Source: Patescibacteria group bacterium
Lineage (GTDB): Bacteria; Patescibacteriota; JABMPQ01; JAQVVF01
Direction: 5' to 3'
NCBI GenBank assembly: GCA_028699085.1
Contig: JAQVVF010000002.1
Location: forward strand, 132,557-196,556
Length of the DNA stretch: 64,000 nucleotides
Shown here: positions 34,596 through 54,127 of the stretch, one piece after another
How the letters are laid out: each line of letters starts with the position of its first letter
Position numbering within the stretch: the first letter of the stretch is position 1
The notes under the pieces: model-generated
What the model was told of the DNA's origin: nothing
What the model saw: the letters and a program-made list of their open reading frames with translations, nothing else
Database searches by the model: none
Made by a program: the position numbers and the translations under genes

Positions 34596-35142
34596 TTATT
34601 GATTATTGGTTATTTCTTTCCACGGGGGGTGTCAAGCTTCGCTAAAGAGCGTAGTTTAAAAAATTCATGTAGAGTCGCAAGATACTCTCTAAACTTCTTG
34701 CATATTATAAGTGCAAACTTATTATCAAAGGTTTCTGAAAAAGTAAAAGCTTTTGCTCAATCTTTTTCATTTCAACCTTCAACTGTAATCGCTTAATACC
34801 CGATTACCATCCATCCCGCTAGATTCGTGTGTGGGAATTGGGTGTCATTTTACGAACGTAGATTATCTCTCGCCTTAGAGATAATTGAAAATTATAATGG
34901 CTTTGAGTAATAAATATTTTTTTGGTTTAAAGTTTATTATTCGAGACAACCAAAACCAGATAAACTTGTAAAAGTTTTTTAAGCAAACTTTTTACACATG
35001 GGTGCAATTCCCATCACCTCCACCATCTGAACAAAATAATCAATAATCAATTTCCAAATAATATTCAATAATCAATAACCAAATTTCAAACTTTTTAATT
35101 ATTGATAATTGGTTATTTACTGATTATTGATTATTGGTTATT
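34596..35142 (+). repeat. exact 19-nt direct repeat TTATTGATTATTGGTTATT flanking ssrA (34596-34614 and 35124-35142) plus inverted partial copies (35035-35050, 35067-35084, 35097-35118)
   Basis: Read directly from the sequence; family of TTATTGATTATTGG-like units on both strands around the tmRNA gene. Confidence 0.55.
34625..35025 (+). ncRNA. ssrA: tmRNA (ssrA), one-piece
   Basis: 5' acceptor strand GGGGGTG pairs with 3' CACCTCC (G3:U70) followed by encoded ACCA; T-arm ATGGGTGCAATTCCCAT resembles GGTTCGAnTCC; lies directly downstream of smpB. Candidate tag frame GCT(34749) TTT GCT CAA TCT TTT TCA TTT CAA CCT TCA ACT GTA ATC GCT TAA (34794-34796) gives (A)FAQSFSFQPSTVIA, preceded by an A-rich stretch as in E. 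coli. Confidence 0.8.
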
Positions 35143-42544: not shown

Positions 42545-45500
42545 CTACAATTGAAACGCATCCTTATCCGCAATCACAAATTTTGCTTTAGAAAGCGAAG
42601 TAAAATGATAGATTGGCGCAAAGTTTTGATTGCTACCTTTCTTGGTTTTAGCAATCGATGTTGGTCTTAGATAATAGTTTCTGATTTTGAATTTTAGGAT
42701 ATTCTTTTCTTTGTTTTGGTAAATAGTGAAAGGTCCGCGCCATTTGTTATCTCTATCTTTGATAAAAAGACGGAGATTCTTTTCTTTAAGTTTGTTTTTC
42801 TTTAGCTTTTTTGTTTTGTAGTGGAAAGTGATTTTGAAAGTAGTTTTACGGATATTCTTGATGTTTGATTTTAGAATAAGGTAAGAAGGATAAAGTTTTT
42901 TCTTGATAAAATGACGGGAAGAATATTTTTTGTTTTTGCGAATTAATGTTAGATAAAGACCAGTAGAATTAGATGGCTTTTCATAGAAATAGACTTTGAT
43001 GTCTTGTCCTAGATCTTGATATGTTCTCAACAAATTAGTTTGCTCTAAATTTAATGTTTGATTAAAATCAGTTGCCATAGAATTCAAGGCTGTAAAAGTT
43101 GTTGCTTCAGGTTGGCTGATCATTGTATTGCCAGCTAGATCTTTCGCATTTCTGACTGATATGTATCCAGAAGTGTTAGTATAGGAGCTATCCAAAACAA
43201 TATTTCCAGTCCATGTCTTTCCTGAATATGATGTTTGGACTACTCCATAGTTTTCAGTTCTCAATCCTGTAATTTCAACAACTGGCAATGCTGTTGTTAA
43301 CATGTTTTCTGAAAATACAATTGTTACTGTGACTAAACCAGCTTGAGCTGGATTTGGAGTATACGAAATTGAAGAAATAGTCGGTAGAATGCTTTCAACT
43401 TGAAATGTCGAAGCAGTCAGATCAGGCAACATTGTATTTCCAGCAATATCTTTAGCGCCTGTTACAGAAATCGTTGCTGTTGCATCTTCATTGTCAGGAT
43501 TTAAAGTAAAAGTGCCGTACCAAATAGCAGAGCCATAAATATTCTGGCTGACTGTGTAAGAATTGGTTAAGCCATTTATCGTTACTGTCGGTGTGACAGT
43601 TGTATCCATGGCTTGCGAAAAGTAAAGAATGACTCCTACTGTTCCAGGAATAGCTGGATTAGGATTAACAATGATTGAAGTAAGATATGGCGCAATAGTG
43701 TTGACTTCAAAAGTGCCAGCTGACAAATCAGCTAACATTGTATTGCCAGCTAGATCTTTTGCATCTGCAACCGAAATTACTGCAGTCTCAATTTCATCAT
43801 CATCAAGCAAAGCAAAAGTGCCAGTCCACAAATTACCATAGCTAGTTTGAGCTACAAGATATGGACTGCTAACCAAGCCTGTGATATTGACTGTTGGTGA
43901 GACAGTTGTATCCATTGTTTCCGAGAATACCAAGCTAACTGTTACATTTCCAGGCTTGGCTGGATTTGGAACAGCTATCGCTGATGTGACTGTTGGTTTT
44001 GTTTCATCAAGAATGATTGTACTGGAAATGCCAGTGCTTTCTGAAAGCAACTTGTCTCTGTATTTGACATAGACTGTCTTTGTCCCATCTCCTGACGATA
44101 ATGTAAAGTTCTTTGATGTAGCATAAGTTTCCCAACTAGCGCCAACAAAAGTCGCGCTTTCTGAAACCATCATCTGATATGCATCAGACGATGCTGATAA
44201 ATTCAAAGTAACAGCTGTTGTATTTGTATAACTTGCTCCAGAATTAATTGCAATTGACGTGGAAGTCGGGGCGGAGCCGAAGATGTGATAAACTACACTA
44301 GAATAAAATGGCGGGATAGAAGTACTACTATAGCCAACCATATGAACATTATCATCATTATCTAAAGCTAAGCTGGGATATTGACCAAAATAACTTATCT
44401 CATTTACTGCCTGCACAACCCATGAATTTTCTTTATAGGCAAAATTTAAAAAATTAGTTGCACTGTTATAGTAGGAGATATTTGGAATGTTTGAACTATT
44501 TAATTTTAAGGTAATGTAACTGCCATAGCTAGCATTAGCATCAACAAATTCTGTATGCCAGCCATCAATATTTTTGTAAGCATATTTCACTTTAAAATTA
44601 GTAGCATCATAATACGCAATATGCGGATAATTGGAACTGTCTAAATCAAGAGAGTTATATTCACCAACACTGCCACTAGAATCAGCAATTTCTGTATGCC
44701 AACCAGTGCCATCTTTGTAAGCATACATTAAATTAGTATTAGTATAATCATAATAGCTGACACAAGGATAATTATTAGAATTGATCTTAATTGAAGATTG
44801 CATGTTATAACCATAATAACCGCCAATACTACCAATAGTTTCTGTATGCCAGCCAGCCCCATCTTTATAAGCATGTTTGACTTGACCTGAAGTACTATAA
44901 TAATAACTGATGTGCGGATAGTTATTCTGATCTATTGCAATCGAGCTAAAATACCCAGTATCATTTACTGAATCAACTGTTTCTAAATGCCAGCCTGAAG
45001 CATCTTGATAAGCATATTTAAGATCATTAACACCTGTATAATGATAACTAATATGCGCGTAATTATTCTGATCTATTGCAATATCTGTCCCGTATGGAGT
45101 ACTAGAAGTATTATCCAACAAAGTTGTATTCCATCGATCATCATCCATATATCCATAACCAACAAAACTCATTCCAGAAGAACTAATACGCACCTCGTCG
45201 TTATTATCAATAATAACTTTGTTAGCATAGTTAAAATATTTAAGCTGATTGCTATTCCAAGCTCCGTTATAGTATGCGCGATAGATATTTGAGCTATATG
45301 TATACCCTATTTGCGGTAAATCAGTGGAAGTCAAATCAATTGACGTCCTACTCGAATTGCAATTAGTATTTACAATCGTTGGATTCCAAGCCCCACTATC
45401 TTTATACGTGTACTTTAAATCTGCATTAGTATTATCATAATAGCTAATATGCGGTCGATTACTATTGTCAGTCACAATAGAAGTATATTGACCAATATTA

Positions 45501-46366
45501 GCGCTACTAGAATCAACTGTTTCTGTTGCCCAAACCCCGCTATCTTTTAAAGCATATTTAAGATCATAATTTGTGCCATCATAATAGCTAATATGAGGTC
45601 GATTTAATAAATCAATTGCAATTGAGCTAAGTGTCCCAACAGAGCCCACAGAATCAACAGTCTCTTTGTGCCAACCATTGATATCTTGATAGGCATATTC
45701 AAGATCATAATTTGTATTATCATAATAGCTAATATGAGCATAGTTAAGATTATCTAGAACTATAGAAGGATGATAGGCGTTAACCGTATTATCAAGAGTC
45801 TGAGTATGCCAGCCATTAATATCTTTATAGGCATACATTAAATAGTATTGATAAGAAAGAGGTATATAATATTTAGTATAAGCAATATGCGGATAACCAT
45901 TGCTGTCAATAGCAATCGAATTATACCTAACATTAGCATTATCAAGATCAACAATCTCACTATGCCAGCCAGATATATCTTGATATGCATAATGAAGATA
46001 ATAGCTCGTTGTATCTATATAGCTGATGTGCGGATAACCATTGCTATCAAGATCCAAAGAATGGCCATAAGTATCACTAATAACATCATAGCTTGCATCA
46101 GGATCAATTGTTTCAAAATATAGCTGGCCATTAACATCTAAAGTTCCATACTTTATTTTTTTTAAATAATAATCATAGCAAGCAATGCTATAACGATCAT
46201 TGCTTTTATTAATCTTCAAAACCGGATTATAACAAACATTACTTGTCCCATCAACCTTCTCCATCGTCAACGCCATCGCCTTATTACAATCCAAACCAAA
46301 AAAGACAGCAAATAGGCTTATGCTGATAAGACAAAAAAATGAAAAAATTATGATTTTTTTAATCAT
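42545..46366 (-). CDS. giant repeat-rich cell-surface protein (N-terminal anchor, >=12 tandem ~45-aa repeats, four ~95-aa Ig-like repeats, Lys-rich tail)
   Basis: Repeats of form S(I)AID.NNYPHISYYD.TNYDLKYAYKD..GWHTETVDS; central SESATFVGASWETY...GDGTKTVYVKYRD; four repeats each ending AKDLAGNTM; basic C-terminus. Confidence 0.7.
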   Translation of the reverse strand: MIKKIIIFSFFCLISISLFAVFFGLDCNKAMALTMEKVDGTSNVCYNPVLKINKSNDRYSIACYDYYLKKIKYGTLDVNGQLYFETIDPDASYDVISDTYGHSLDLDSNGYPHISYIDTTSYYLHYAYQDISGWHSEIVDLDNANVRYNSIAIDSNGYPHIAYTKYYIPLSYQYYLMYAYKDINGWHTQTLDNTVNAYHPSIVLDNLNYAHISYYDNTNYDLEYAYQDINGWHKETVDSVGSVGTLSSIAIDLLNRPHISYYDGTNYDLKYALKDSGVWATETVDSSSANIGQYTSIVTDNSNRPHISYYDNTNADLKYTYKDSGAWNPTIVNTNCNSSRTSIDLTSTDLPQIGYTYSSNIYRAYYNGAWNSNQLKYFNYANKVIIDNNDEVRISSSGMSFVGYGYMDDDRWNTTLLDNTSSTPYGTDIAIDQNNYAHISYHYTGVNDLKYAYQDASGWHLETVDSVNDTGYFSSIAIDQNNYPHISYYYSTSGQVKHAYKDGAGWHTETIGSIGGYYGYNMQSSIKINSNNYPCVSYYDYTNTNLMYAYKDGTGWHTEIADSSGSVGEYNSLDLDSSNYPHIAYYDATNFKVKYAYKNIDGWHTEFVDANASYGSYITLKLNSSNIPNISYYNSATNFLNFAYKENSWVVQAVNEISYFGQYPSLALDNDDNVHMVGYSSTSIPPFYSSVVYHIFGSAPTSTSIAINSGASYTNTTAVTLNLSASSDAYQMMVSESATFVGASWETYATSKNFTLSSGDGTKTVYVKYRDKLLSESTGISSTIILDETKPTVTSAIAVPNPAKPGNVTVSLVFSETMDTTVSPTVNITGLVSSPYLVAQTSYGNLWTGTFALLDDDEIETAVISVADAKDLAGNTMLADLSAGTFEVNTIAPYLTSIIVNPNPAIPGTVGVILYFSQAMDTTVTPTVTINGLTNSYTVSQNIYGSAIWYGTFTLNPDNEDATATISVTGAKDIAGNTMLPDLTASTFQVESILPTISSISYTPNPAQAGLVTVTIVFSENMLTTALPVVEITGLRTENYGVVQTSYSGKTWTGNIVLDSSYTNTSGYISVRNAKDLAGNTMISQPEATTFTALNSMATDFNQTLNLEQTNLLRTYQDLGQDIKVYFYEKPSNSTGLYLTLIRKNKKYSSRHFIKKKLYPSYLILKSNIKNIRKTTFKITFHYKTKKLKKNKLKEKNLRLFIKDRDNKWRGPFTIYQNKEKNILKFKIRNYYLRPTSIAKTKKGSNQNFAPIYHFTSLSKAKFVIADKDAFQL

Positions 46367-46520
46367 CTTGCTTTTTGTTTTTTTATTCGTCCAAAATATT
46401 ACAAATCATGCCTACAAAAACATAGAGGTTGACTTGTTCCCTATTTGTTTTATTATACCATTTTTTTAACAAAAGATATCAACAAAAAAAGCTAACATTA
46501 TTTGTTAGCTCTATAAACTA

Positions 46521-46616
46521 GGAGGCTCAGCCTTTTACTTAAACGATATAGTCATTTTCTTAAATTAGTCACAATTTAAAACATTGCGCTTTCTTTTTAA
46601 TAAAAGGCTGAGCCTC
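46521..46616 (+). repeat. 16-nt perfect inverted repeat GAGGCTCAGCCTTTTA / TAAAAGGCTGAGCCTC separated by 63 nt
   Basis: Arms 46522-46537 and 46601-46616; lies in the intergenic region between the M23 peptidase gene end and the giant surface protein gene start. Confidence 0.5.
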
Positions 46617-46726
46617 TTGTTGAGCTTTCTTGCTTAAAAGTTATTATCAACATAATAAAAAAGACTAACCTATAAAGATTAGCCATAAAGTGCATTCGTT
46701 TTTTTACTTTTTAATTTTTTATTTTT

Positions 46727-48523
46727 TTATGGTTGCCAAACATAACATTCAATTCCTTCATTTCGATAACCTAAATTAGAAATTGCATTATCTCTTTCAT
46801 CACGACTTATCGTATACAAATGGTCAGTAGTCGCATTATTATATAGTCTAAACAAAGGCTTAGATCCAGATATTTCTTGTCTTGCGCAAAAACCAATATC
46901 GCCTTTTTGTTCATAATTATTAGCAGAATCTCTTTCATCTGTTGAAATTGTATAAAAATGATCTCTCGGATTTTCTCTTTTTAATTTCCACAATTTGACT
47001 AATCTGCCATCAACTCGCTCTCGATAGGTTTTAAATTGTTCACCTTCAAATCTATAGCCATCAACTCCATCATTTTCTAGTCTTAATAAATGCGCTATAT
47101 CTCCATTACTATTATAGTAATATCTAAAAACTTGTTGCTTGCAATGCGCTCCGTCATCAATTAATCCATTGCAATCATTATCTTTTAGATCACAATTTTC
47201 AAGACTTCGACCACTTGGAACACAATCAGTCAAACTCGCCCAAAGACATGTTGGTCCGCAAGTCCTCGTTGCTCTGCCAACTCTGCACTCTCCTATATTA
47301 TATTGGCATTCAAATTCTTCAACTTGGTTTGGCGCGCACACTCCTTGCTCCTCACAAACATTCCAACTCTGCCAAAGACAATTTATCCCACATTCCCGCC
47401 TCATTCTGCCACAATGCCCGCATGGCTCAACTTGGAATTGTAATGACTCACATTCAAGTCCAACTAACAATCCGCATTGACTCCATTCAGTCCAGCGCAA
47501 TCTATCGTTGCAATGCCTGATCTGTTCACCGCAAAAATCGCATAGCTTTTTTTCAATCTGTCCAAGCTGGCATTCTGCAATATTTCTGACAATAATTCTA
47601 AAATGCATTTCTGCCCAATCATTCAAAAATCCAGCAGACTTATGCCAAATTCTAAAATACACTTTATATTCATGATTTAATTCAACATTATTTCTTGCTT
47701 TTACTTTGAATCTAAACCAAGCAATTTCATTAGAAGCAACTCTAGCAGTTGTCTGGCTAGTTACTCGTTCACAATTATTTCCCAGCCAAGAGTTATGACA
47801 CAACAGACTTTCTGTTATATCGCCATCGCGATTTACAGATCTTAATTCAACATAATTATTATTTTCTCTATCATTGCTCCAAAAATTTGATCCAGTATTT
47901 TTAAAAGCAACAATAAATTCTTTTTCCTCACCTTGATCAAATTCAATCAAGCCATCAGGACTTTGCCGATAATATTCGCAAGAATATCTAGGCTGACCAA
48001 AATTTCCAGAAGTTAAAATAATGCCATTAAAAATATTATGCCCTTCAATTGGCGATGGTTCGACTGACACGCCATTTTGAAATAAACAAAAATGCAAATG
48101 CGATCCAGTAGAAAAAGGCATGCCTGGAGTATTATCACATTTTCCAATTACATCGCCATGCAGAACTCTTTGACCAAAAGCAACAGCAGGCTGTTCCAAT
48201 AAATGCGCATACAAAGTTTGGGTATTGTTGGCATGATTAATTTTTACCATCCAACCATAGCCGTCATTAAAAAATGCTTGAGATACAACTCCATCAGCAA
48301 CTGCCAGAATATCTTGCCCCATATCATCAAAATCGATTGCATTTGCATCAACACAAAAATGGCTCAACCCGACATGATAACCCTCGCCATAATAATTACC
48401 ACTGCCACCAATTTGCCAACGCTGTCCTGCTCTCCACGGCGCATATAATTCAATAGGAGCAGCAAAAGAATTAAAACTAAACAATGAAGCAACAAAACAA
48501 AAAAGCAAATTCTTAATGTTCAT
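46727..48523 (-). CDS. secreted M23 (LytM-type) metallopeptidase with Cys-rich middle region and C-terminal YTIS..ERD repeats
   Basis: HVGLSHFCVDANAID and TGSHLHF (M23 HxxxD / HxH); >30 Cys in the middle region; C-terminal duplicated DHFYTISTDERD / DHLYTISRDERD; start refined to MNIKNLLF (48523); apparently higher GC than surroundings. Confidence 0.7.
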   Translation of the reverse strand: MNIKNLLFCFVASLFSFNSFAAPIELYAPWRAGQRWQIGGSGNYYGEGYHVGLSHFCVDANAIDFDDMGQDILAVADGVVSQAFFNDGYGWMVKINHANNTQTLYAHLLEQPAVAFGQRVLHGDVIGKCDNTPGMPFSTGSHLHFCLFQNGVSVEPSPIEGHNIFNGIILTSGNFGQPRYSCEYYRQSPDGLIEFDQGEEKEFIVAFKNTGSNFWSNDRENNNYVELRSVNRDGDITESLLCHNSWLGNNCERVTSQTTARVASNEIAWFRFKVKARNNVELNHEYKVYFRIWHKSAGFLNDWAEMHFRIIVRNIAECQLGQIEKKLCDFCGEQIRHCNDRLRWTEWSQCGLLVGLECESLQFQVEPCGHCGRMRRECGINCLWQSWNVCEEQGVCAPNQVEEFECQYNIGECRVGRATRTCGPTCLWASLTDCVPSGRSLENCDLKDNDCNGLIDDGAHCKQQVFRYYYNSNGDIAHLLRLENDGVDGYRFEGEQFKTYRERVDGRLVKLWKLKRENPRDHFYTISTDERDSANNYEQKGDIGFCARQEISGSKPLFRLYNNATTDHLYTISRDERDNAISNLGYRNEGIECYVWQP

Positions 48524-49175
48524 TTTCTTCCTCCTGAAATTCAAAGCTCTCCATCATCTCTTCAAACTCTGATAAAAATACTGTATCTCTTTCTAATACA
48601 GTTGCAGAAAAAAAATAAATCTTATCATTCCTTGCAAAATAATAATCCTCAATATATCCAGACATCCATTCGCCTTGATAATCTTCAGGAATTTCTCTGC
48701 AATCAAATAATATTCTCAAACTCTCATTGCTTATTTCATAATCTAACAGTACTCCTCTAAAATTAGGTCGCTTCGAAATTGCAAAATTCCACAAATCAAG
48801 ATTATCAGAATTATCATAATTTAAACCTTCCACTAAAATCTCATTTTCTTTTGGATGGTACAATTCATCAAAATCAAAATTGCCCATCATCAAAACAAGT
48901 CCAGAATCTATTTCACCTGTTTCCAAAAAATTCCAAGTATTTGGATATAACATTCTAAAACCCAATTCATAATTTTGATAATCAATCTTGCGTGAATCTC
49001 TAGGCTTTTTTTCATCAAAGTTATCATCATTAGAATTTGACTCTTCTTCTTTTACCTCGCTTGTATCATTGCTTCTTAATTCAATCTCTGGAATCATTCC
49101 GATATTATCATTGCTATCTACACAACCAAAAAACAAAAAACTTAGCCAAATAAAAAACCCTCCCTTTATTTTCAT
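48513..49175 (-). CDS. hypothetical acidic lipoprotein
   Basis: MKIKGGFFIWLSFLFFGC lipobox; Asp/Glu-rich mature protein. Confidence 0.4.
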   Translation of the reverse strand: MKIKGGFFIWLSFLFFGCVDSNDNIGMIPEIELRSNDTSEVKEEESNSNDDNFDEKKPRDSRKIDYQNYELGFRMLYPNTWNFLETGEIDSGLVLMMGNFDFDELYHPKENEILVEGLNYDNSDNLDLWNFAISKRPNFRGVLLDYEISNESLRILFDCREIPEDYQGEWMSGYIEDYYFARNDKIYFFSATVLERDTVFLSEFEEMMESFEFQEEENEH

Positions 49176-49285: not shown

Positions 49286-49909
49286 ATGATCAAAATTTCA
49301 AAACATTTTTTTATAATTCTAGTTTTAATTTTATCAACTTATCTTTTGATAAATACGCCAACTATAATTAATCAAACAGATTTAAATTTTAAAAAACAAA
49401 AAAAGATTAAACAAGCAACAAAGATTCTTAATCATAAGTCATACAATAACAACACCTTAATCATTCCAAATTTAGGAATTTCTGCGCCAATAAAATTTAT
49501 TAAAAAACCTGCCCGCAATGCTACGCATAGCGTTGCAGGCGGGCAAAATGAAGAAATAATTTTGGAAAATTTGAAAAAGGGGATTGTCCATTTTCCCTTA
49601 ACCTCCAAACCAAACAAAATCGGCAATTCAGTTTATATCGGTCATTCTTCAAATTCTTTATGGAACAGGGGAGATTATGATTCAGTTTTTTTAAATCTAA
49701 ACCAAATAAAAAAAGACAATCTCATCTTTATTGCCTATAATAATAAATTATATAAATATAAAACTTTCCAAAAATTCTACATCAGCCCTTCTGATCTTTC
49801 AATCTTCAATCAAACAAATAATAAAATCATTACTCTTTTAACTTGCTGGCCACCTAACACTACATTCTCTCGTCTCGCAGTCCAGGCAAAACAAATAAAA
49901 TATAAGTAA
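49286..49909 (+). CDS. sortase-family transpeptidase (N-terminal TM anchor)
   Basis: Catalytic His in YIGHSS, Cys in TLLTCWPP (TLxTC), Arg in SRLAV; start refined to MIKISKHFFIILVLIL at 49286 (the track's extension from 49178 covers a TATAAT promoter-like region). Confidence 0.7.
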   Translation: MIKISKHFFIILVLILSTYLLINTPTIINQTDLNFKKQKKIKQATKILNHKSYNNNTLIIPNLGISAPIKFIKKPARNATHSVAGGQNEEIILENLKKGIVHFPLTSKPNKIGNSVYIGHSSNSLWNRGDYDSVFLNLNQIKKDNLIFIAYNNKLYKYKTFQKFYISPSDLSIFNQTNNKIITLLTCWPPNTTFSRLAVQAKQIKYK

Positions 49910-50009
49910 TTTAACAAAAAAAACAAAAAGTGATATTATTAACTATCCCATCTAGTTAGATCTTTTTAAAAAAACAGCCCCCCAAAACCTCAAACAAGGA
50001 GGAGAAAAA

Positions 50010-50300
50010 ATGGCAACAAAAAAGATTTTGTCCAAATTGTTTATTAGCATGATTGCTCTCTTCATTCTGTTTCCATCAATTTCTTTTGCCAAAGGCAGTG
50101 TTTCAGCAACTTTGACTGTCACTGCAACTGTTGTAAAACCAACAACCTTGCAAATTTCCAAAGTTACTACCAAAGGAGTAGTATCAGACAAAACCTCAAC
50201 AGTGACTTATAACGCCGTTTCTGATGTAGAACCAATTATTGAAGTCAAAAAAGAAATCATCAAAGGGCAATTTGTCGAAATTGTGACTATAACTTTCTAG
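50010..50300 (+). CDS. small secreted beta-rich protein, paralog 1 of 3
   Basis: SD AAGGAGGAGAAAAA; signal peptide cleavage ~SFA/KG; mature ~68 aa; C-terminus KKEIIKGQFVEIVTITF. Confidence 0.6.
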   Translation: MATKKILSKLFISMIALFILFPSISFAKGSVSATLTVTATVVKPTTLQISKVTTKGVVSDKTSTVTYNAVSDVEPIIEVKKEIIKGQFVEIVTITF

Positions 50301-50330
50301 AAATTCCGCAGAAAAAAGGAGAATAAAATA

Positions 50331-50618
50331 ATGACAAAAAAAAGATTGCTTGAATTGCTCATCGCAACATTTGCCTTCCTCATTTTCTTGCCAACAGCTT
50401 CTTTTGCCCAAGGCAGTGGTTCAGGAACAATGATTGTCACTGCAACTCCCGTAAAACCAACAACTTTGCATCTCTCCAAAGCTACTGTCAAAAGAATCGT
50501 CTCCGACAAAACTGTATCAATTAGTTACAATGCCATTTCTGATCTATCGCCAGTAATTGAAGTAAAAAAAGAAATCATCAAAGGACAGTTTGTCGAAATT
50601 GTGACTGTAACTTTCTAG
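50331..50618 (+). CDS. small secreted beta-rich protein, paralog 2 of 3
   Basis: SD AAAAGGAGAATAAAATA; ~65% identity to paralog 1 with identical C-terminal block VIEVKKEIIKGQFVEIVTVTF. Confidence 0.6.
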   Translation: MTKKRLLELLIATFAFLIFLPTASFAQGSGSGTMIVTATPVKPTTLHLSKATVKRIVSDKTVSISYNAISDLSPVIEVKKEIIKGQFVEIVTVTF

Positions 50619-50646
50619 AAATTCCATAGAAAAAAGGAGAAAAAAA

Positions 50647-50940
50647 ATGGCAACAAAAAAAATATTGTCAGGATTATTCTTTGCAATTATCGCCTTCCTC
50701 ATCTTTTTGCCAGCAACTTCTTTTGCCAAAGGCAGTGCTTCAGGAACAATGATCGTCAGTGTCACTGGCGCAGCAAAACCAAAAACATTACAAATCTCCA
50801 AAGCTACTGTCAAAAACATGGCTTCTGATGAAACAATAGAAATCAGATATAATCCAGTATCAGATATAAAACCGCTAATCGAAATCACAAAAAAAATCAT
50901 CAGAGATCAATTTGTTGAAACCATTACTATAATTTTCTGA
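50647..50940 (+). CDS. small secreted beta-rich protein, paralog 3 of 3
   Basis: SD AAAAAGGAGAAAAAAA; most divergent paralog (LIEITKKIIRDQFVETITIIF); followed by a terminator. Confidence 0.6.
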   Translation: MATKKILSGLFFAIIAFLIFLPATSFAKGSASGTMIVSVTGAAKPKTLQISKATVKNMASDETIEIRYNPVSDIKPLIEITKKIIRDQFVETITIIF

Positions 50941-50961
50941 AATTCCTGCTTTTTAAAAATC

Positions 50962-50990
50962 AAAAACCCCACTTTAATGGGGCTTTTTTT
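50962..50990. terminator. bidirectional rho-independent terminator
   Basis: AAAAA-CCCCActttaaTGGGG-CTTTTTTT. Confidence 0.65.
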
Positions 50991-52359
50991 ATTTCTCTAT
51001 TTTTTTAACTTCAGCTCTCGCTTTTTTACCTGCATCAATTATATTTTTTGTTTTTTCTTTTTTATTTGAAACTTTGGCACTATTTTCATTAAATTTTTTC
51101 TTCATCACTTCCTTATAATCTTTTGTTTCTTTCCATAATTTAAAAGGAATAGTATAGCTTACTGCTTTTCCATATTTCAAAGAATAAGCAATTTGTTTTG
51201 TATTATATCCGCCATAAATATAAGCATTTTTCAAATTAATCCATTTCCAAGTATATGCTTTTGGCAAATATTTTGCTCGATCTTTTTTGGTCTTAAAATA
51301 ATTTTTCTTTAAGTTTTTTGTTAATTCAGCAACTAAAACTTTTTGTTCTGCTTTAGTAATCTTTTTCTTCCCGTATGGTCCAATTTTAATATTAGTATAC
51401 CAACCCCAAGCTGGTTTTGGTTGCATATCTTTTTTCAGCAAACCAAAATGATCTTCATATAATCCACGATAATCGTAGTTTCTAATATTATAAAGTAAAA
51501 TTGTTTCTACGTATTTGCGTCTTAATATTTCTGGAATTGCATTTTCAAAATATTCTTTTTGCATTTGATCTGTAATTCCTGTACCGCCAGTTGAAGCGCC
51601 CATTTCTGTGATCCAGATCTTATGATTTTTTTTATACTTTTTCATTATCAAGCTTGCTCGATCTAAATCAGATAACAATGCATTCAAGCTTCTGCCTTCT
51701 AAAAAATATTGATTAGCATAATACAAATGGATGCCTAATCCATCAAAATAGTTTCCATATTTTTGATACATTTGTTCGATAAAATGTGGATTTGGCCAAG
51801 ATAATCCGCCTGTAATTACTATCGCATCTGGATCAACCATTTTTATAACAGTATAAGCAGGTTTCAAAATCATTCCATAAGCTTTTGGATTATTAGGAGT
51901 CAAATAAGTAGGTGAGTCAGGTTCATTCCAAACTTCCCAAACATCCACATAATCTTTATAACGATCCGCAACTAGCGCCACAAATTCACGCCAGATTACT
52001 TCATTTGGTACACGAAAATCATCATGATCTTTATTATATGCCAACATACCGACTACTTTGATGTTTTGTTTTTTATAATCCTCCATTATCAAATCATAAC
52101 GATTTAGCCATGCATCAATATCATTGCCCCATAAAGATTCCATCTGAAAATGCTCTCGAACAATCTTAGTTTTGCTATCTTTTAATCTAATATCATAATC
52201 ATCATCCAAGCCATCATTATCTCCGCCTAAAACCCAATGCACATTCAAACCTACCTTGTCTTTATAAGGAATAGGATTTACCTTAGCTAAGCCAAAACCT
52301 GGCAAAAACACGCTTGCTAGAAATAGCACTAAAGTTGTCAAAATAAGGCTCTTTTTCAT
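50989..52359 (-). CDS. secreted clan GH-A glycoside hydrolase (GH5/GH39-like) with Lys-rich C-terminal tail
   Basis: Signal peptide; WEVWNEPD (acid/base NEP) and IWITEMG (nucleophile TE); C-terminal ~70 aa Lys-rich. Confidence 0.7.
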   Translation of the reverse strand: MKKSLILTTLVLFLASVFLPGFGLAKVNPIPYKDKVGLNVHWVLGGDNDGLDDDYDIRLKDSKTKIVREHFQMESLWGNDIDAWLNRYDLIMEDYKKQNIKVVGMLAYNKDHDDFRVPNEVIWREFVALVADRYKDYVDVWEVWNEPDSPTYLTPNNPKAYGMILKPAYTVIKMVDPDAIVITGGLSWPNPHFIEQMYQKYGNYFDGLGIHLYYANQYFLEGRSLNALLSDLDRASLIMKKYKKNHKIWITEMGASTGGTGITDQMQKEYFENAIPEILRRKYVETILLYNIRNYDYRGLYEDHFGLLKKDMQPKPAWGWYTNIKIGPYGKKKITKAEQKVLVAELTKNLKKNYFKTKKDRAKYLPKAYTWKWINLKNAYIYGGYNTKQIAYSLKYGKAVSYTIPFKLWKETKDYKEVMKKKFNENSAKVSNKKEKTKNIIDAGKKARAEVKKIEK

Positions 52360-52460
52360 AATGTCTAAGTATATAACATAATAATGATTTTGTCAAATTC
52401 TGATACTAAAAAAAATACTTAAAATTGACATCTTTTTTTCTTTAAAATACGCTAAATTAT

Positions 52461-52811
52461 TCACTTCAAATCATTATCACAAATACTCGACAATAAGATT
52501 GCTTGATCATGAAAAGCCTGCAGAGCCACTTGATATGCTTTTTTGCCTTTTTTAGTTAATGAATAAACTTTCTTTTTCTTTTTACCAATCGCTACTTCAT
52601 TCTTTTCAACATACTTGCCTCTTAATAATAGATTTAAAGTTGGATATATTGTCCCAAAAGATGGGGAACAATAACCAAAAGAATTGCGAAAAACTAAAGA
52701 AGCAAGTTCATATCCATAACATTCTTTATCATACAGTGCTGACAAAATAAAAAATTTCGTAATTGATTTTTTAATTAAATCGTCCCAATATTTTTTTGTT
52801 TCCAGTTTCAT
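52461..52811 (-). CDS. PadR-family transcriptional regulator
   Basis: CYGYELASLV...GTIYPTLNLLLRGKYVEKNE winged-helix signature. Confidence 0.75.
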   Translation of the reverse strand: MKLETKKYWDDLIKKSITKFFILSALYDKECYGYELASLVFRNSFGYCSPSFGTIYPTLNLLLRGKYVEKNEVAIGKKKKKVYSLTKKGKKAYQVALQAFHDQAILLSSICDNDLK

Positions 52812-53290
52812 ATTTTATATAGTTATCCAATATATTGTCTATCGATATATATTATATAATAATTAAATTAATTTATTAAATAATTATCCACAAAAATAAA
52901 ATGGGGAATAGGATTTTTTTTAAAAACCAACTCAAATATCAATTATTATTTATAATAATCAATAAAAAATATTAATATTATTCTCTTTTCTCGCTTCTGA
53001 CTTCTCTATAGATAAAACTGCTACTTTGATTTTCTCATAAATATAAAATCACTAAAATCATAAAATTTTTGAATTTTGAAATTAGATATTAATAAATTGA
53101 ATGGAAATTAAGAATTAGAAATTAAAAATTAACGTTTTATTTAACAAAAAACTTTTTTATTCAAAAAATAAATAAAAATTGCAATGGGGAAGTGCAGGGG
53201 ATTTGTTTTTTTCGCTCTACTCTTCTCTATTCCCTATTTTTAATACTTTATTTTAATTTTTTTATACAAAATGCTATACTATATCTAACA

Positions 53291-54127
53291 ATGAAAAAAT
53301 ATCTAATTATTTTTGGCTTGATAATTGTCTTTGCAACAGTTATGTATACCTCCTACTCCCAAAAAAAGCCAAACAAAACAAATTCACAAAAAGCAAGCGG
53401 TGCCTTAATTAAACATCTAAAAATTGATCCGGAAATTATTGATCGTGAAACAAGAGTGCCAATTATTCTCTATCATTATGTTAGAGACATCGCTCCTCAA
53501 CCAGACAATTTAGGCTGGGGTCTTTCTGTCCCTCCATCTACCTTCCAACAACAAATGGATTATTTAGTCAAAGAAAATTATACAACCATTACTCCAAATA
53601 ATCTTTATCAATATCTAAAGTATGGAACACCATTGCCACCAAAACCAATTATGCTCACTTTTGATGATGGCTATTTAGATTTTTTTGAAGAAGTCTTTCC
53701 TGTCCTTCGCGATAATCATTTGACTGCCACCAACTTTATTATTTCCAATTTTCTTGGACGAGAACAATATCTTGATTGGTATCACTTAAAATATATGGTA
53801 GCATCTGGCAGAGTTTTTGTTGGAGGACATACCTTGAATCACATGAAATTAACCGAAGTTAATTCAGAACAGCTAGATCAAGAAATTGCAATTAACAAAG
53901 CATCTTTAGAAGAAGGATTAGATACAAAAATTGACTATTTCGCCTATCCTTATGGTAGCTATGATGATAATGTTTTAAATGCGCTCAAAAAAAATAAATA
54001 CAAAGCTGCTTTTACAACTGAAAATGGCAATATCCATAAAACCAGCCAATTATTAAAATTGCCAAGAATCAAAGTCGGAGGCGGAGATACTGTCCAAACC
54101 TTTGCTGAAAAAATTAAAACTGAATAA
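53291..54127 (+). CDS. polysaccharide deacetylase (NodB-homology, CE4)
   Basis: MLTFDDGYLDF (TFDDG), GGHTLNHMKL, FAYPYGSYD; N-terminal TM; start refined to MKKYLIIF (53291). Confidence 0.8.
   Translation: MKKYLIIFGLIIVFATVMYTSYSQKKPNKTNSQKASGALIKHLKIDPEIIDRETRVPIILYHYVRDIAPQPDNLGWGLSVPPSTFQQQMDYLVKENYTTITPNNLYQYLKYGTPLPPKPIMLTFDDGYLDFFEEVFPVLRDNHLTATNFIISNFLGREQYLDWYHLKYMVASGRVFVGGHTLNHMKLTEVNSEQLDQEIAINKASLEEGLDTKIDYFAYPYGSYDDNVLNALKKNKYKAAFTTENGNIHKTSQLLKLPRIKVGGGDTVQTFAEKIKTE

What the first reader, a model, noticed from the sequence alone, without database searches (positions are those of the whole stretch)
49286..50990. Sortase followed by three tandem paralogous ~95-aa secreted proteins lacking any LPXTG-type sorting signal
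The three genes each have strong SDs and AxA-type signal peptides, and a single terminator closes the operon. Their mature ~68-aa products are beta-rich, Thr/Val-rich, and end in a conserved block VIEVKKEIIKGQFVEIVT(I/V)TF. They are co-oriented directly behind a sortase, yet none has an LPXTG/hydrophobic/basic C-terminal sorting signal. They may be non-canonical sortase substrates, minor pilin-like or cell-wall-associated subunits, or an unrelated secreted family whose paralog expansion hints at antigenic or functional diversification.
Basis: seen in the sequence. Interest (0 to 1): 0.55.

Follow-up and report, generated by a model that had tools for sequence, protein, structure and literature searches.

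The report
Orphan secreted mini-protein trio beside sortase
Three tandem genes for small secreted beta-type proteins really do sit behind a sortase in this Patescibacteria genome, but they are a recent, lineage-specific insertion with no relatives elsewhere and no sign of being sortase substrates, so the pairing looks incidental.

Summary
A true sortase (49286-49909) is followed by three tandem paralogs (50010-50300, 50331-50618, 50647-50940). Each has a Shine-Dalgarno site and a 26-27-aa signal peptide ending in SFA, and one shared hairpin terminator follows. The genes are real: dN/dS against the orthologous trio of a second lineage is 0.16-0.38.

The suggested link to sortase is not supported. 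None of the three has a pentapeptide, membrane-spanning or basic C-terminal tail. Four related lineages (sortase 71-78% identical; the three longer loci also share the flanking gene order) have the sortase followed directly by the convergent downstream gene, with no cassette. The sortase tree points to a single gain. A promoter-like site lies between the sortase and gene 1.

The family has exactly six members (two lineages, three paralogs each) among 5.8 billion protein clusters. It matches nothing in Pfam, NCBIfam, PHROGs or PDB, and AlphaFold2 gives low confidence (pLDDT 53-54).

Best reading: a taxonomically restricted family of about 7-kDa secreted proteins rich in Thr, Val and Ile, probably envelope-associated, inserted into a cell-envelope gene neighbourhood. 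Function is unresolved. Interest is low to moderate.

The parts
49286..49909 (+). Sortase gene (207 aa): N-terminal membrane anchor plus catalytic domain with His120, Cys187 (TLLTCWPP) and Arg196
   Evidence: Pfam PF04203 E 4.5e-19. It scores below every NCBIfam class cut-off. The closest solved structures are class D and C sortases 2ln7 and 4d70. The catalytic residues are invariant in the alignment of 7 relatives.
49911..49939 (+). Promoter-like site (TTAACA, 17 nt, TATTAT preceded by TG) just after the sortase stop codon. Possibly the cassette's own promoter.
   Evidence: Consensus scan, 10 of 12 matches plus TG. Both hexamers and the TG are conserved in L001. This is only a consensus match in AT-rich DNA: 32 sites were found against 19 expected in the 4.2-kb scan.
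50010..50300 (+). Paralog 1 (96 aa): signal peptide 50010-50090 (27 aa, ...SFA|KGS), mature 69 aa
   Evidence: ORF and translation. AGGAGG lies 7 nt upstream. dN/dS 0.16 against ortholog P0002. GenBank MDD3887531.1, 'hypothetical protein'.
50331..50618 (+). Paralog 2 (95 aa): signal peptide 50331-50408 (26 aa, ...SFA|QGS), mature 69 aa
   Evidence: dN/dS 0.38 against P0003. GenBank MDD3887532.1.
50647..50940 (+). Paralog 3 (97 aa): signal peptide 50647-50727 (27 aa, ...SFA|KGS), mature 70 aa. The most divergent copy.
   Evidence: dN/dS 0.28 against P0005. GenBank MDD3887533.1.
50073..50815 (.). DNA-level tandem repeat (period 318, about 80% identity) underlying the three genes and their spacers
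   Evidence: Tandem Repeats Finder score 914. The unit alignment shows that the stop codon, GAAATTCC and the SD spacer were duplicated along with the genes.
50962..50987 (.). Bidirectional intrinsic-terminator-like hairpin, shared by the cassette and the convergent glycosyl-hydrolase gene (50989-52359, minus strand)
   Evidence: Terminator scan found it on both strands. It is identical in L001.

Best explanation
The three genes encode a taxonomically restricted (orphan) family of small Sec-exported proteins.

Processing and product:
- Each precursor is cleaved by signal peptidase I after S-F-A.
- This releases a 68-70-aa protein of about 7 kDa. It is mildly basic (pI 8.3-9.5), lacks cysteine and is rich in Thr, Val and Ile.
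- It has a conserved N-terminal strand-like segment (TxTVTATxxKPTTLxxSK) and a conserved C-terminal beta-hairpin (IEVKKEIIKGQFVEIVTxTF).

Origin and relation to the sortase:
- The cassette arose or arrived, and triplicated, in the common ancestor of two sampled Patescibacteria lineages.
- It was inserted between a pre-existing stand-alone housekeeping sortase and a convergent glycosyl-hydrolase gene, inside a conserved cell-envelope gene block.
- It probably has its own promoter.
- The products are not sortase donor substrates, and the adjacency is positional rather than mechanistic.

Inferred only:
- The three paralogs are kept as distinct orthologs under purifying selection. Their N-terminal segment and C-terminal hairpin are well conserved, the middle less so.
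- I therefore infer that they act together outside the membrane, held non-covalently in or on the envelope, most plausibly by beta-sheet-mediated association with each other or with wall or surface components.
For: Shown:
- The ORFs, SD sites, signal peptides and terminator are present.
- Purifying selection acts in the + frame.
- There is no sorting signal.
- The family has exactly six proteins in two syntenic lineages. This comes from word-indexed searches of 5.8 billion clusters and an exhaustive HMMER profile scan of 1.84 billion representatives.
- Nothing was found in Pfam, NCBIfam, PHROGs or PDB, nor in pattern scans of genome, viral or metagenome contigs.
- Sortase orthologs at 71-78% identity lack the cassette. 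Those on the longer contigs sit in the same M23-peptidase / 218-aa protein / sortase / glycosyl hydrolase / polysaccharide-deacetylase / NifU / ABC block, with PadR also called in L004. Only 35-94 nt separate the sortase from the convergent gene.
- In the sortase NJ tree the cassette-free lineages are paraphyletic to the two cassette-bearing ones, which implies one gain.
- The promoter-like site after the sortase stop is conserved in L001.
- Thr+Val+Ile makes up 36-49% of the mature proteins, against a 20% background.
- A C-terminal hairpin is predicted at pLDDT about 70.
- More than half of CPR genomes encode a sortase family (PMC6744442), so a sortase neighbour is unremarkable in this group.

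Inferred: the cleavage site, extracellular retention and co-assembly.
Against: - There is no terminator between the sortase and gene 1, so read-through co-transcription is possible.
- In AT-rich DNA a promoter-like match is weak evidence: 32 sites were found against 19 expected.
- Only about six lineages of this clade are sampled, so 'orphan' partly reflects sparse sampling.
- No fold could be predicted (pLDDT 53-54), so the association mechanism is conjecture.
- Absence of a C-terminal sorting signal does not exclude a role as the amine-acceptor partner in a sortase reaction.
Confidence: 0.6

Rival explanations
1. Non-canonical partners of the adjacent sortase. One version is that they act as nucleophile acceptors, through the new N-terminal amine of K/Q-G-S or an invariant lysine such as the K of (V/A)KP(T/K)TL, to which the sortase ligates an LPXTG-type protein encoded elsewhere. 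The other is that they are cleaved at the internal xPxTx-like KPTTL / KPKTL motif.
For: - The genes are co-oriented, with only 100 nt and no terminator between the sortase and gene 1.
- K15-P16-x-T18-L19 is invariant in all six proteins.
- The sortase looks catalytically intact.
- No conventional substrate lies in the 64-kb window.
Against: - The sortase is conserved in four related lineages that have no such genes, so it has other substrates.
- KPTTL sits near the N-terminus and is not followed by a membrane anchor or basic tail, which sortase donor substrates need.
- The first motif position is K, which to my knowledge is not seen in described sortase motifs.
- The cassette is a late insertion with a promoter-like site of its own.
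Confidence: 0.1
2. Secreted antagonistic or host-directed effectors. These would be Sec-dependent, beta-structured, mildly cationic peptides analogous in format to lactococcin 972 or LCI. They would be diversified by duplication and used by an epibiotic Patescibacterium against hosts or competitors.
For: - The format fits my recollection of lactococcin 972 (a precursor of roughly 90 aa, Sec signal, mature peptide of roughly 66 aa, beta-rich, cationic). Here the precursors are 95-97 aa, the mature proteins 68-70 aa, pI 8.3-9.5, with no Cys.
- The genes are in tandem, with mosaic exchange between copies.
- The family is lineage-specific, as is common for effectors.
Against: - There is no match to lactococcin-972 or LCI families in Pfam or NCBIfam, and none to any PDB chain even at E<=10.
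- No immunity or ABC genes lie in the cassette.
- Purifying selection (dN/dS 0.16-0.38) and 1:1 orthology of all three copies fit conserved structural roles better than an arms race.
Confidence: 0.15
3. Subunits of a small self-assembling surface polymer, such as a functional-amyloid or strand-complementation fibre or sheet. The three paralogs would serve as major and minor subunits.
For: - The content of beta-branched residues is extreme.
- The N-terminal strand and C-terminal hairpin are conserved and the middle is more variable. Invariant positions number 11 of 27, 4 of 19 and 11 of 22.
- The monomer does not fold confidently in AlphaFold2, as can happen for folds completed only in an oligomer.
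- CPR bacteria are now known to build sortase-independent donor-strand-exchange pili (bioRxiv 10.64898/2026.03.03.709456).
Against: - At 68 aa the proteins are about half the size of the truncated Ig-like pilin domains I recall from chaperone-usher systems.
- No chaperone-like or anchor gene is adjacent.
- There is no internal repeat of the curli or Fap type.
- There is no oligomer prediction and no imaging data.
Confidence: 0.15
4. Not genes at all: chance ORFs in a tandem DNA repeat.
For: Long ORFs also exist on the opposite strand of the same repeat (79, 70 and 118 aa).
Against: - Third-codon-position excess and dN/dS of 0.16-0.38 apply in the + frame.
- SD sites, signal peptides and reading frames are conserved in both lineages.
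Confidence: 0.01

Closest known systems
Sortase substrates carrying a cell-wall sorting signal (LPXTG-type surface proteins and pilins of Gram-positive bacteria)
   Same: They have an N-terminal Sec signal peptide and are encoded next to and co-oriented with a sortase. The organism is monoderm-like.
   Different: They have no pentapeptide motif, no C-terminal hydrophobic segment and no basic tail. They are far smaller than known pilins and have no Cna-type domain, pilin motif or E-box. The sortase is conserved in relatives without them.
Lactococcin 972 / LCI-type Sec-dependent beta-structured small secreted peptides
   Same: The overall format matches: a precursor of about 95 aa, a Sec signal of about 26 aa, a cysteine-free, beta-prone, mildly cationic mature product of about 68 aa.
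   Different: There is no detectable sequence or profile similarity in Pfam, NCBIfam or PDB. No adjacent immunity or ABC genes are present. The composition is Thr/Val/Ile-rich, which is not how I recall those peptides.
Pam pili of CPR bacteria (PamA/PamB; donor-strand exchange, chaperone-assisted; bioRxiv 10.64898/2026.03.03.709456)
   Same: They are CPR-specific, Sec-exported, beta-structured surface proteins assembled without sortase. Several paralogous subunits are encoded side by side.
   Different: Pam pilins are 38-55 kDa two-domain proteins with Ig-like folds and paired cysteines. They are encoded with membrane-anchored chaperones (PamC/D) and an anchor (PamR). Here the products are 7 kDa, cysteine-free and have no such partners nearby.
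Short chaplins of Streptomyces (small secreted amyloid-forming proteins that co-exist with sortase-anchored long chaplins)
   Same: They are several paralogous small (about 5-7 kDa) secreted hydrophobic beta-prone proteins without sorting signals, in an organism that also has a sortase.
   Different: There is no chaplin-domain hit in Pfam and no cysteines. No long paralog with a sorting signal was found in the window or the family. This is an analogy recalled from knowledge, not a tested relationship.

Membership tests
Sortase (enzyme, PF04203) | Sortase catalytic domain scoring above the family threshold | tested here: met
   PF04203 at 68.9 bits against a cut-off of 26.6, E 4.5e-19. Sortase structures 2ln7 and 4d70 are the best PDB matches.
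Sortase (enzyme, PF04203) | Catalytic His, Cys (TLxTC) and Arg, plus an N-terminal membrane anchor | tested here: met
   H120, C187 (TLLTCWPP) and R196 are invariant in 7 relatives. A hydrophobic N-terminus, FFIILVLILSTYLLI, is present.
Sortase classes A-F | Score above an NCBIfam class-specific cut-off | tested here: not met
   The best hits are SrtD-type at 51.5 bits (cut-off 140), class C at 49.8 (160) and class E at 34 (160). The class is unassigned, a CPR-type sortase.
Sortase donor substrate (cell-wall sorting signal) | N-terminal secretion signal | tested here: met
   KK n-region, hydrophobic core and SFA cleavage motif in all six proteins. Judged by eye; no SignalP was available.
Sortase donor substrate (cell-wall sorting signal) | C-terminal LPXTG-like pentapeptide | tested here: not met
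   A relaxed motif scan of all ORFs found nothing real in the window. The three proteins end in ...VEIVTITF...VTVTF and ...TIIF.
Sortase donor substrate (cell-wall sorting signal) | A hydrophobic membrane-spanning segment followed by a basic tail after the motif | tested here: not met
   No C-terminal hydrophobic stretch or K/R tail is present. The proteins end directly after the beta-hairpin.
Sortase-assembled Gram-positive pilins | CnaA/CnaB-type Ig domains, the YPKN pilin-motif lysine and an E-box | tested here: not met
   There is no Pfam domain at E<=1. The mature length of 68-70 aa is too short, and no YPK or E-box motif appears in the alignment.
Lactococcin 972 family bacteriocins | A match to the family profile or to the solved structure's sequence | tested here: not met
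   No such hit in Pfam or NCBIfam at E<=1. The profile search against all PDB chains at E<=10 returned nothing.
Lactococcin 972 family bacteriocins | Adjacent immunity or ABC-transporter genes | tested here: not met
   The cassette holds only the three paralogs, between the sortase and a convergent glycosyl hydrolase.
Donor-strand-exchange pilins (chaperone-usher or CPR Pam type) | An incomplete Ig-like fold with an acceptor groove | tested here: inconclusive
   The AlphaFold2 models have low confidence (pLDDT 54 and 53). Foldseek against PDB gave nothing at E<=0.001.
Donor-strand-exchange pilins (chaperone-usher or CPR Pam type) | A dedicated chaperone or anchor gene in the same operon | tested here: not met
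   The neighbours are a sortase, a glycosyl hydrolase, a lipoprotein-like 220-aa protein and an M23 peptidase. No chaperone-like gene is present.
Chaplins / known functional amyloids | A chaplin, curlin or Fap repeat profile match | tested here: not met
   No such Pfam hit at E<=1. There is no internal repeat within a protein.

The most novel reading that the evidence does not exclude
The three 7-kDa proteins are the subunits of a previously unknown, very small-subunit surface assembly of a Patescibacterium, held together by beta-strand association. Alternatively, they are dedicated amine-acceptor partners through which the adjacent sortase couples surface proteins. Either would be a new kind of envelope component, gained recently in one CPR lineage.
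Probability: 0.1. Interest if true: 0.6.

Novelty: new member of a known kind. Interest (0 to 1): 0.22.

Why it matters
If the reading is right, this is an ordinary case. CPR genomes are full of lineage-specific small secreted proteins, and this trio happens to have landed next to a common housekeeping sortase. The practical lesson is that gene adjacency to a sortase in CPR genomes should not be read as a substrate relationship without a sorting signal or conserved co-occurrence.

The locus has modest value as a clean, datable example. An orphan secreted-protein gene was gained, triplicated and then homogenised by gene conversion between two conserved convergent genes. That could serve studies of gene birth and surface diversification in ultrasmall symbiotic bacteria. 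It would matter more only if the proteins proved to form a new surface structure or to use the sortase in an unconventional way.

Tried and rejected
- Family assignment by Pfam, NCBIfam and PHROGs gave only noise-level hits at E 0.02-0.3 (Lir1, SecM_small, FlaF and others), which I rejected.
- The exhaustive profile search of 1.84 billion representatives returned three hits besides the family's own cluster. These were a titin-like protein with 15 near-identical Ig repeats and two leucine-rich-repeat proteins. Their scores are sums of many weak matches over repeats (15, 7 and 3 stretches), so I rejected them as artefacts.
- A profile search against PDB sequences at E<=10 gave zero hits.
- AlphaFold2 on the full-length and mature alignments gave pLDDT 54 and 53. 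Foldseek of the mature model against PDB gave only hairpin-sized matches at E>3, which are meaningless.
- Pattern scans of GTDB genomes, IMG/VR and JGI metagenome contigs found no tblastn-confirmed relatives.
- An HMM search of six-frame translations of the window and all fetched loci found no extra copy and no remnant in the cassette-free relatives. The short intergenic regions of those relatives show no trace either.
- A foreign-origin signal from base composition was not seen. The cassette GC of 0.33-0.38 lies within the range of neighbouring genes.
- A search for conventional sortase substrates in the 64-kb window found none. The sortase's true substrates must lie elsewhere in the genome.
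- Literature on CPR sortases gave only general statements. The CPR Pam pilus preprint describes an unrelated, much larger pilin system.
Full report
**What is there**

The window is AT-rich (32% GC). Its proteins are deposited as a 'Patescibacteria group bacterium' MAG.

At 49286-49909 (+) lies a 207-aa protein.
- It has an N-terminal hydrophobic anchor and a sortase domain (Pfam PF04203, E 4.5e-19, 68.9 bits against a cut-off of 26.6).
- It scores below every NCBIfam class-specific threshold.
- It is most similar to class D and C sortase structures.
- His120, Cys187 (in TLLTCWPP) and Arg196 are invariant among seven relatives.

After a 100-nt gap come three ORFs of 96, 95 and 97 aa at 50010-50300, 50331-50618 and 50647-50940.
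- They are 57-64% identical to each other.
- They lie on a DNA tandem repeat of period 318. The repeat also duplicated the stop codon, a GAAATTCC box and the Shine-Dalgarno spacer.
- Each has a GGAG(G) box 7-9 nt before the ATG.
- Each has a typical signal peptide: MxTKK, a hydrophobic core, then S-F-A before K/Q-G-S.
- A hairpin with T-runs on both strands at 50962-50987 ends both the cassette and the convergent glycosyl-hydrolase gene.

- The quoted C-terminal block applies to copies 1 and 2 only.
- The cleavage motif is SxA.
- Co-transcription with the sortase is not shown.

**Are they genes?**

A second lineage (JGI metagenome contigs L001-L003) carries the same three genes in the same order. 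Comparing each gene with its positional ortholog gives 12/6/28, 9/9/19 and 12/14/25 differences at codon positions 1/2/3. The dN/dS values are 0.16, 0.38 and 0.28, and the sortase gives 0.17. The + frame is therefore under purifying selection. The long antisense ORFs are by-products.

**What the products look like**

The mature proteins have these properties:
- 68-70 aa and 7.2-7.7 kDa
- pI 8.3-9.5
- no Cys or Trp
- 36-49% Thr+Val+Ile, against 20% ± 4% for the window's larger ORFs

Invariant positions cluster in two places. One is an N-terminal segment, T-x-x-V-x-x-T...K-P-x-T-L-x-x-S-K-x-T-x-K. The other is a C-terminal segment, P-x-I-E-x-x-K-x-I-I-x-x-Q-F-x-E-x-x-T-x-x-F.

AlphaFold2 with the only available alignment (six sequences) gave pLDDT 54 for the full length and 53 for the mature part. 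Only the C-terminal hairpin reached about 70. Foldseek on that model found nothing meaningful. So 'beta-rich' is plausible but not established as a fold.

**Relatives**

The family is tiny.
- Two word-indexed searches of 5.8 billion protein clusters returned exactly six proteins: the three in this window and the three in the JGI lineage.
- An exhaustive HMMER profile scan of 1.84 billion representatives returned the family's own cluster and three repeat-protein artefacts.
- Pfam, NCBIfam, PHROGs and a PDB profile search gave nothing.
- Pattern scans of GTDB genomes, IMG/VR and JGI contigs gave nothing.

**The key comparative result**

Sortase orthologs at 78%, 75%, 73% and 71% identity (P0008-P0011) were located on their contigs.

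The three loci with enough flank (L004, L005, L008) keep the window's downstream gene order. The two that reach upstream (L004, L005) also keep the upstream part. The order is:
- a large surface protein
- M23 peptidase with DUF5648
- a protein of about 218 aa
- the sortase
- a convergent glycosyl hydrolase
- PadR (called only in L004)
- polysaccharide deacetylase
- NifU
- an ABC ATPase

In all four lineages, including the short L012 contig, the sortase stop is followed within 35-94 nt by the end of the convergent gene. There is no trace of the small genes. A distant sortase (38% identical, L010/L011) is likewise solitary.

In an NJ tree rooted on that distant sortase, the cassette-free lineages are paraphyletic to the pair (window, JGI). 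A single gain in their common ancestor is therefore the parsimonious history. The triplication predates their split, because the orthology is 1:1:1.

One of the cassette-free relatives sits on a 654-kb contig. Its proteins are in the searched collections, and no family member was found there.

**Consequences for the sortase idea**

- The proteins lack all three parts of a C-terminal sorting signal.
- The sortase existed and persists without them.
- Sortases are present in more than half of CPR genomes (PMC6744442), so having one as a neighbour is not special.
- A promoter-like site with an extended -10 (TTAACA, 17 nt, TG-n-TATTAT) lies immediately after the sortase stop and is conserved in the JGI lineage. 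Such matches are common in AT-rich DNA, so this is only suggestive.

What cannot be excluded is a role as an acceptor nucleophile, or use of the invariant internal KP(T/K)TL. I rate this low, because that motif lacks the membrane anchor that holds donor substrates at the enzyme.

**Most likely function**

I commit to the following. The genes form a lineage-specific family of Sec-exported proteins. They are processed by signal peptidase I, are about 7 kDa and beta-prone, and are released to the outside of the membrane. They act on or in the cell envelope. All three paralogs are needed, since each is retained under purifying selection. They are independent of the sortase.

- Shown: the genes, the export signals, the selection, the restricted distribution and the late insertion.
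- Inferred: the cleavage site, the location, and beta-sheet-mediated association with each other or with envelope components.

Alternatives are a small-subunit surface polymer, secreted antagonistic or host-directed peptides in the format of lactococcin 972, and a non-canonical sortase partner. None has positive evidence beyond format.

**Comparison with known systems**

- The enzyme is an ordinary, class-unassigned, CPR-type sortase.
- The small proteins fail the membership tests for sortase substrates, Gram-positive pilins, lactococcin-972-type bacteriocins and chaplins.
- They lack the size and partner genes of donor-strand-exchange pilins, including the recently described CPR Pam pili. Those have 38-55-kDa subunits and membrane-anchored chaperones.

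**Verdict**

The sortase-substrate interpretation is not supported. The 'unrelated secreted family' option is favoured. This is an orphan small-protein family of unknown function in a sparsely sampled CPR clade, a common kind of thing, and of low to moderate interest.

Noticed in passing
window 49508-49543: The sortase gene carries an in-frame 36-nt G+C-rich insertion in a 32% GC genome. It adds 12 residues (PARNATHSVAGG) that are absent from all six other sortase relatives. As single-stranded DNA the region folds into a strong hairpin (-15.9 kcal/mol, z -4.7). It occurs only once in the window. Its origin is unexplained; a palindromic mini-element, a template switch or an assembly artefact are possibilities.
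   Followed up: partly
window 50010-50646 compared with L001 8001-8630: There is mosaic, concerted evolution between paralogs 1 and 2. Over alignment columns 61-150, window gene 1 is 90-93% identical to gene 2 of the other lineage but only 77-82% identical to its own ortholog. The C-terminal block of genes 1 and 2 within the window is 95% identical at the DNA level, higher than ortholog identity. This indicates gene conversion between the tandem copies.
   Followed up: partly
window 42545-49175 and 50989-54127; L004, L005, L008: A cell-envelope gene block is conserved around the sortase across the clade. It comprises a giant secreted protein with YDLKYAY..GWH repeats (1273 aa, no Pfam hit recorded for its JGI orthologs), an M23 peptidase fused to a Cys-rich region and DUF5648, a lipoprotein-like 220-aa protein, the sortase, a Glyco_hydro_cc-like hydrolase, PadR and a polysaccharide deacetylase. 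The giant protein differs greatly in size and content between lineages (833-1287 aa).
   Followed up: no
window 49952-50191, 50297-50509, 50544-50900 (minus strand): Long antisense ORFs (79, 70 and 118 aa) run across each of the three small genes. The codon-position pattern of substitutions supports only the + frame, so these are by-products of the repeat's composition.
   Followed up: yes
window 34625-35025 (+): A tmRNA gene is the only Rfam family found at gathering threshold in the window (104.7 bits).
   Followed up: no
window 52600-53200: A very AT-rich stretch (18-23% GC) lies between the PadR-like gene and the polysaccharide-deacetylase gene. In relative L004 a 107-aa ORF is called at the corresponding place.
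   Followed up: no
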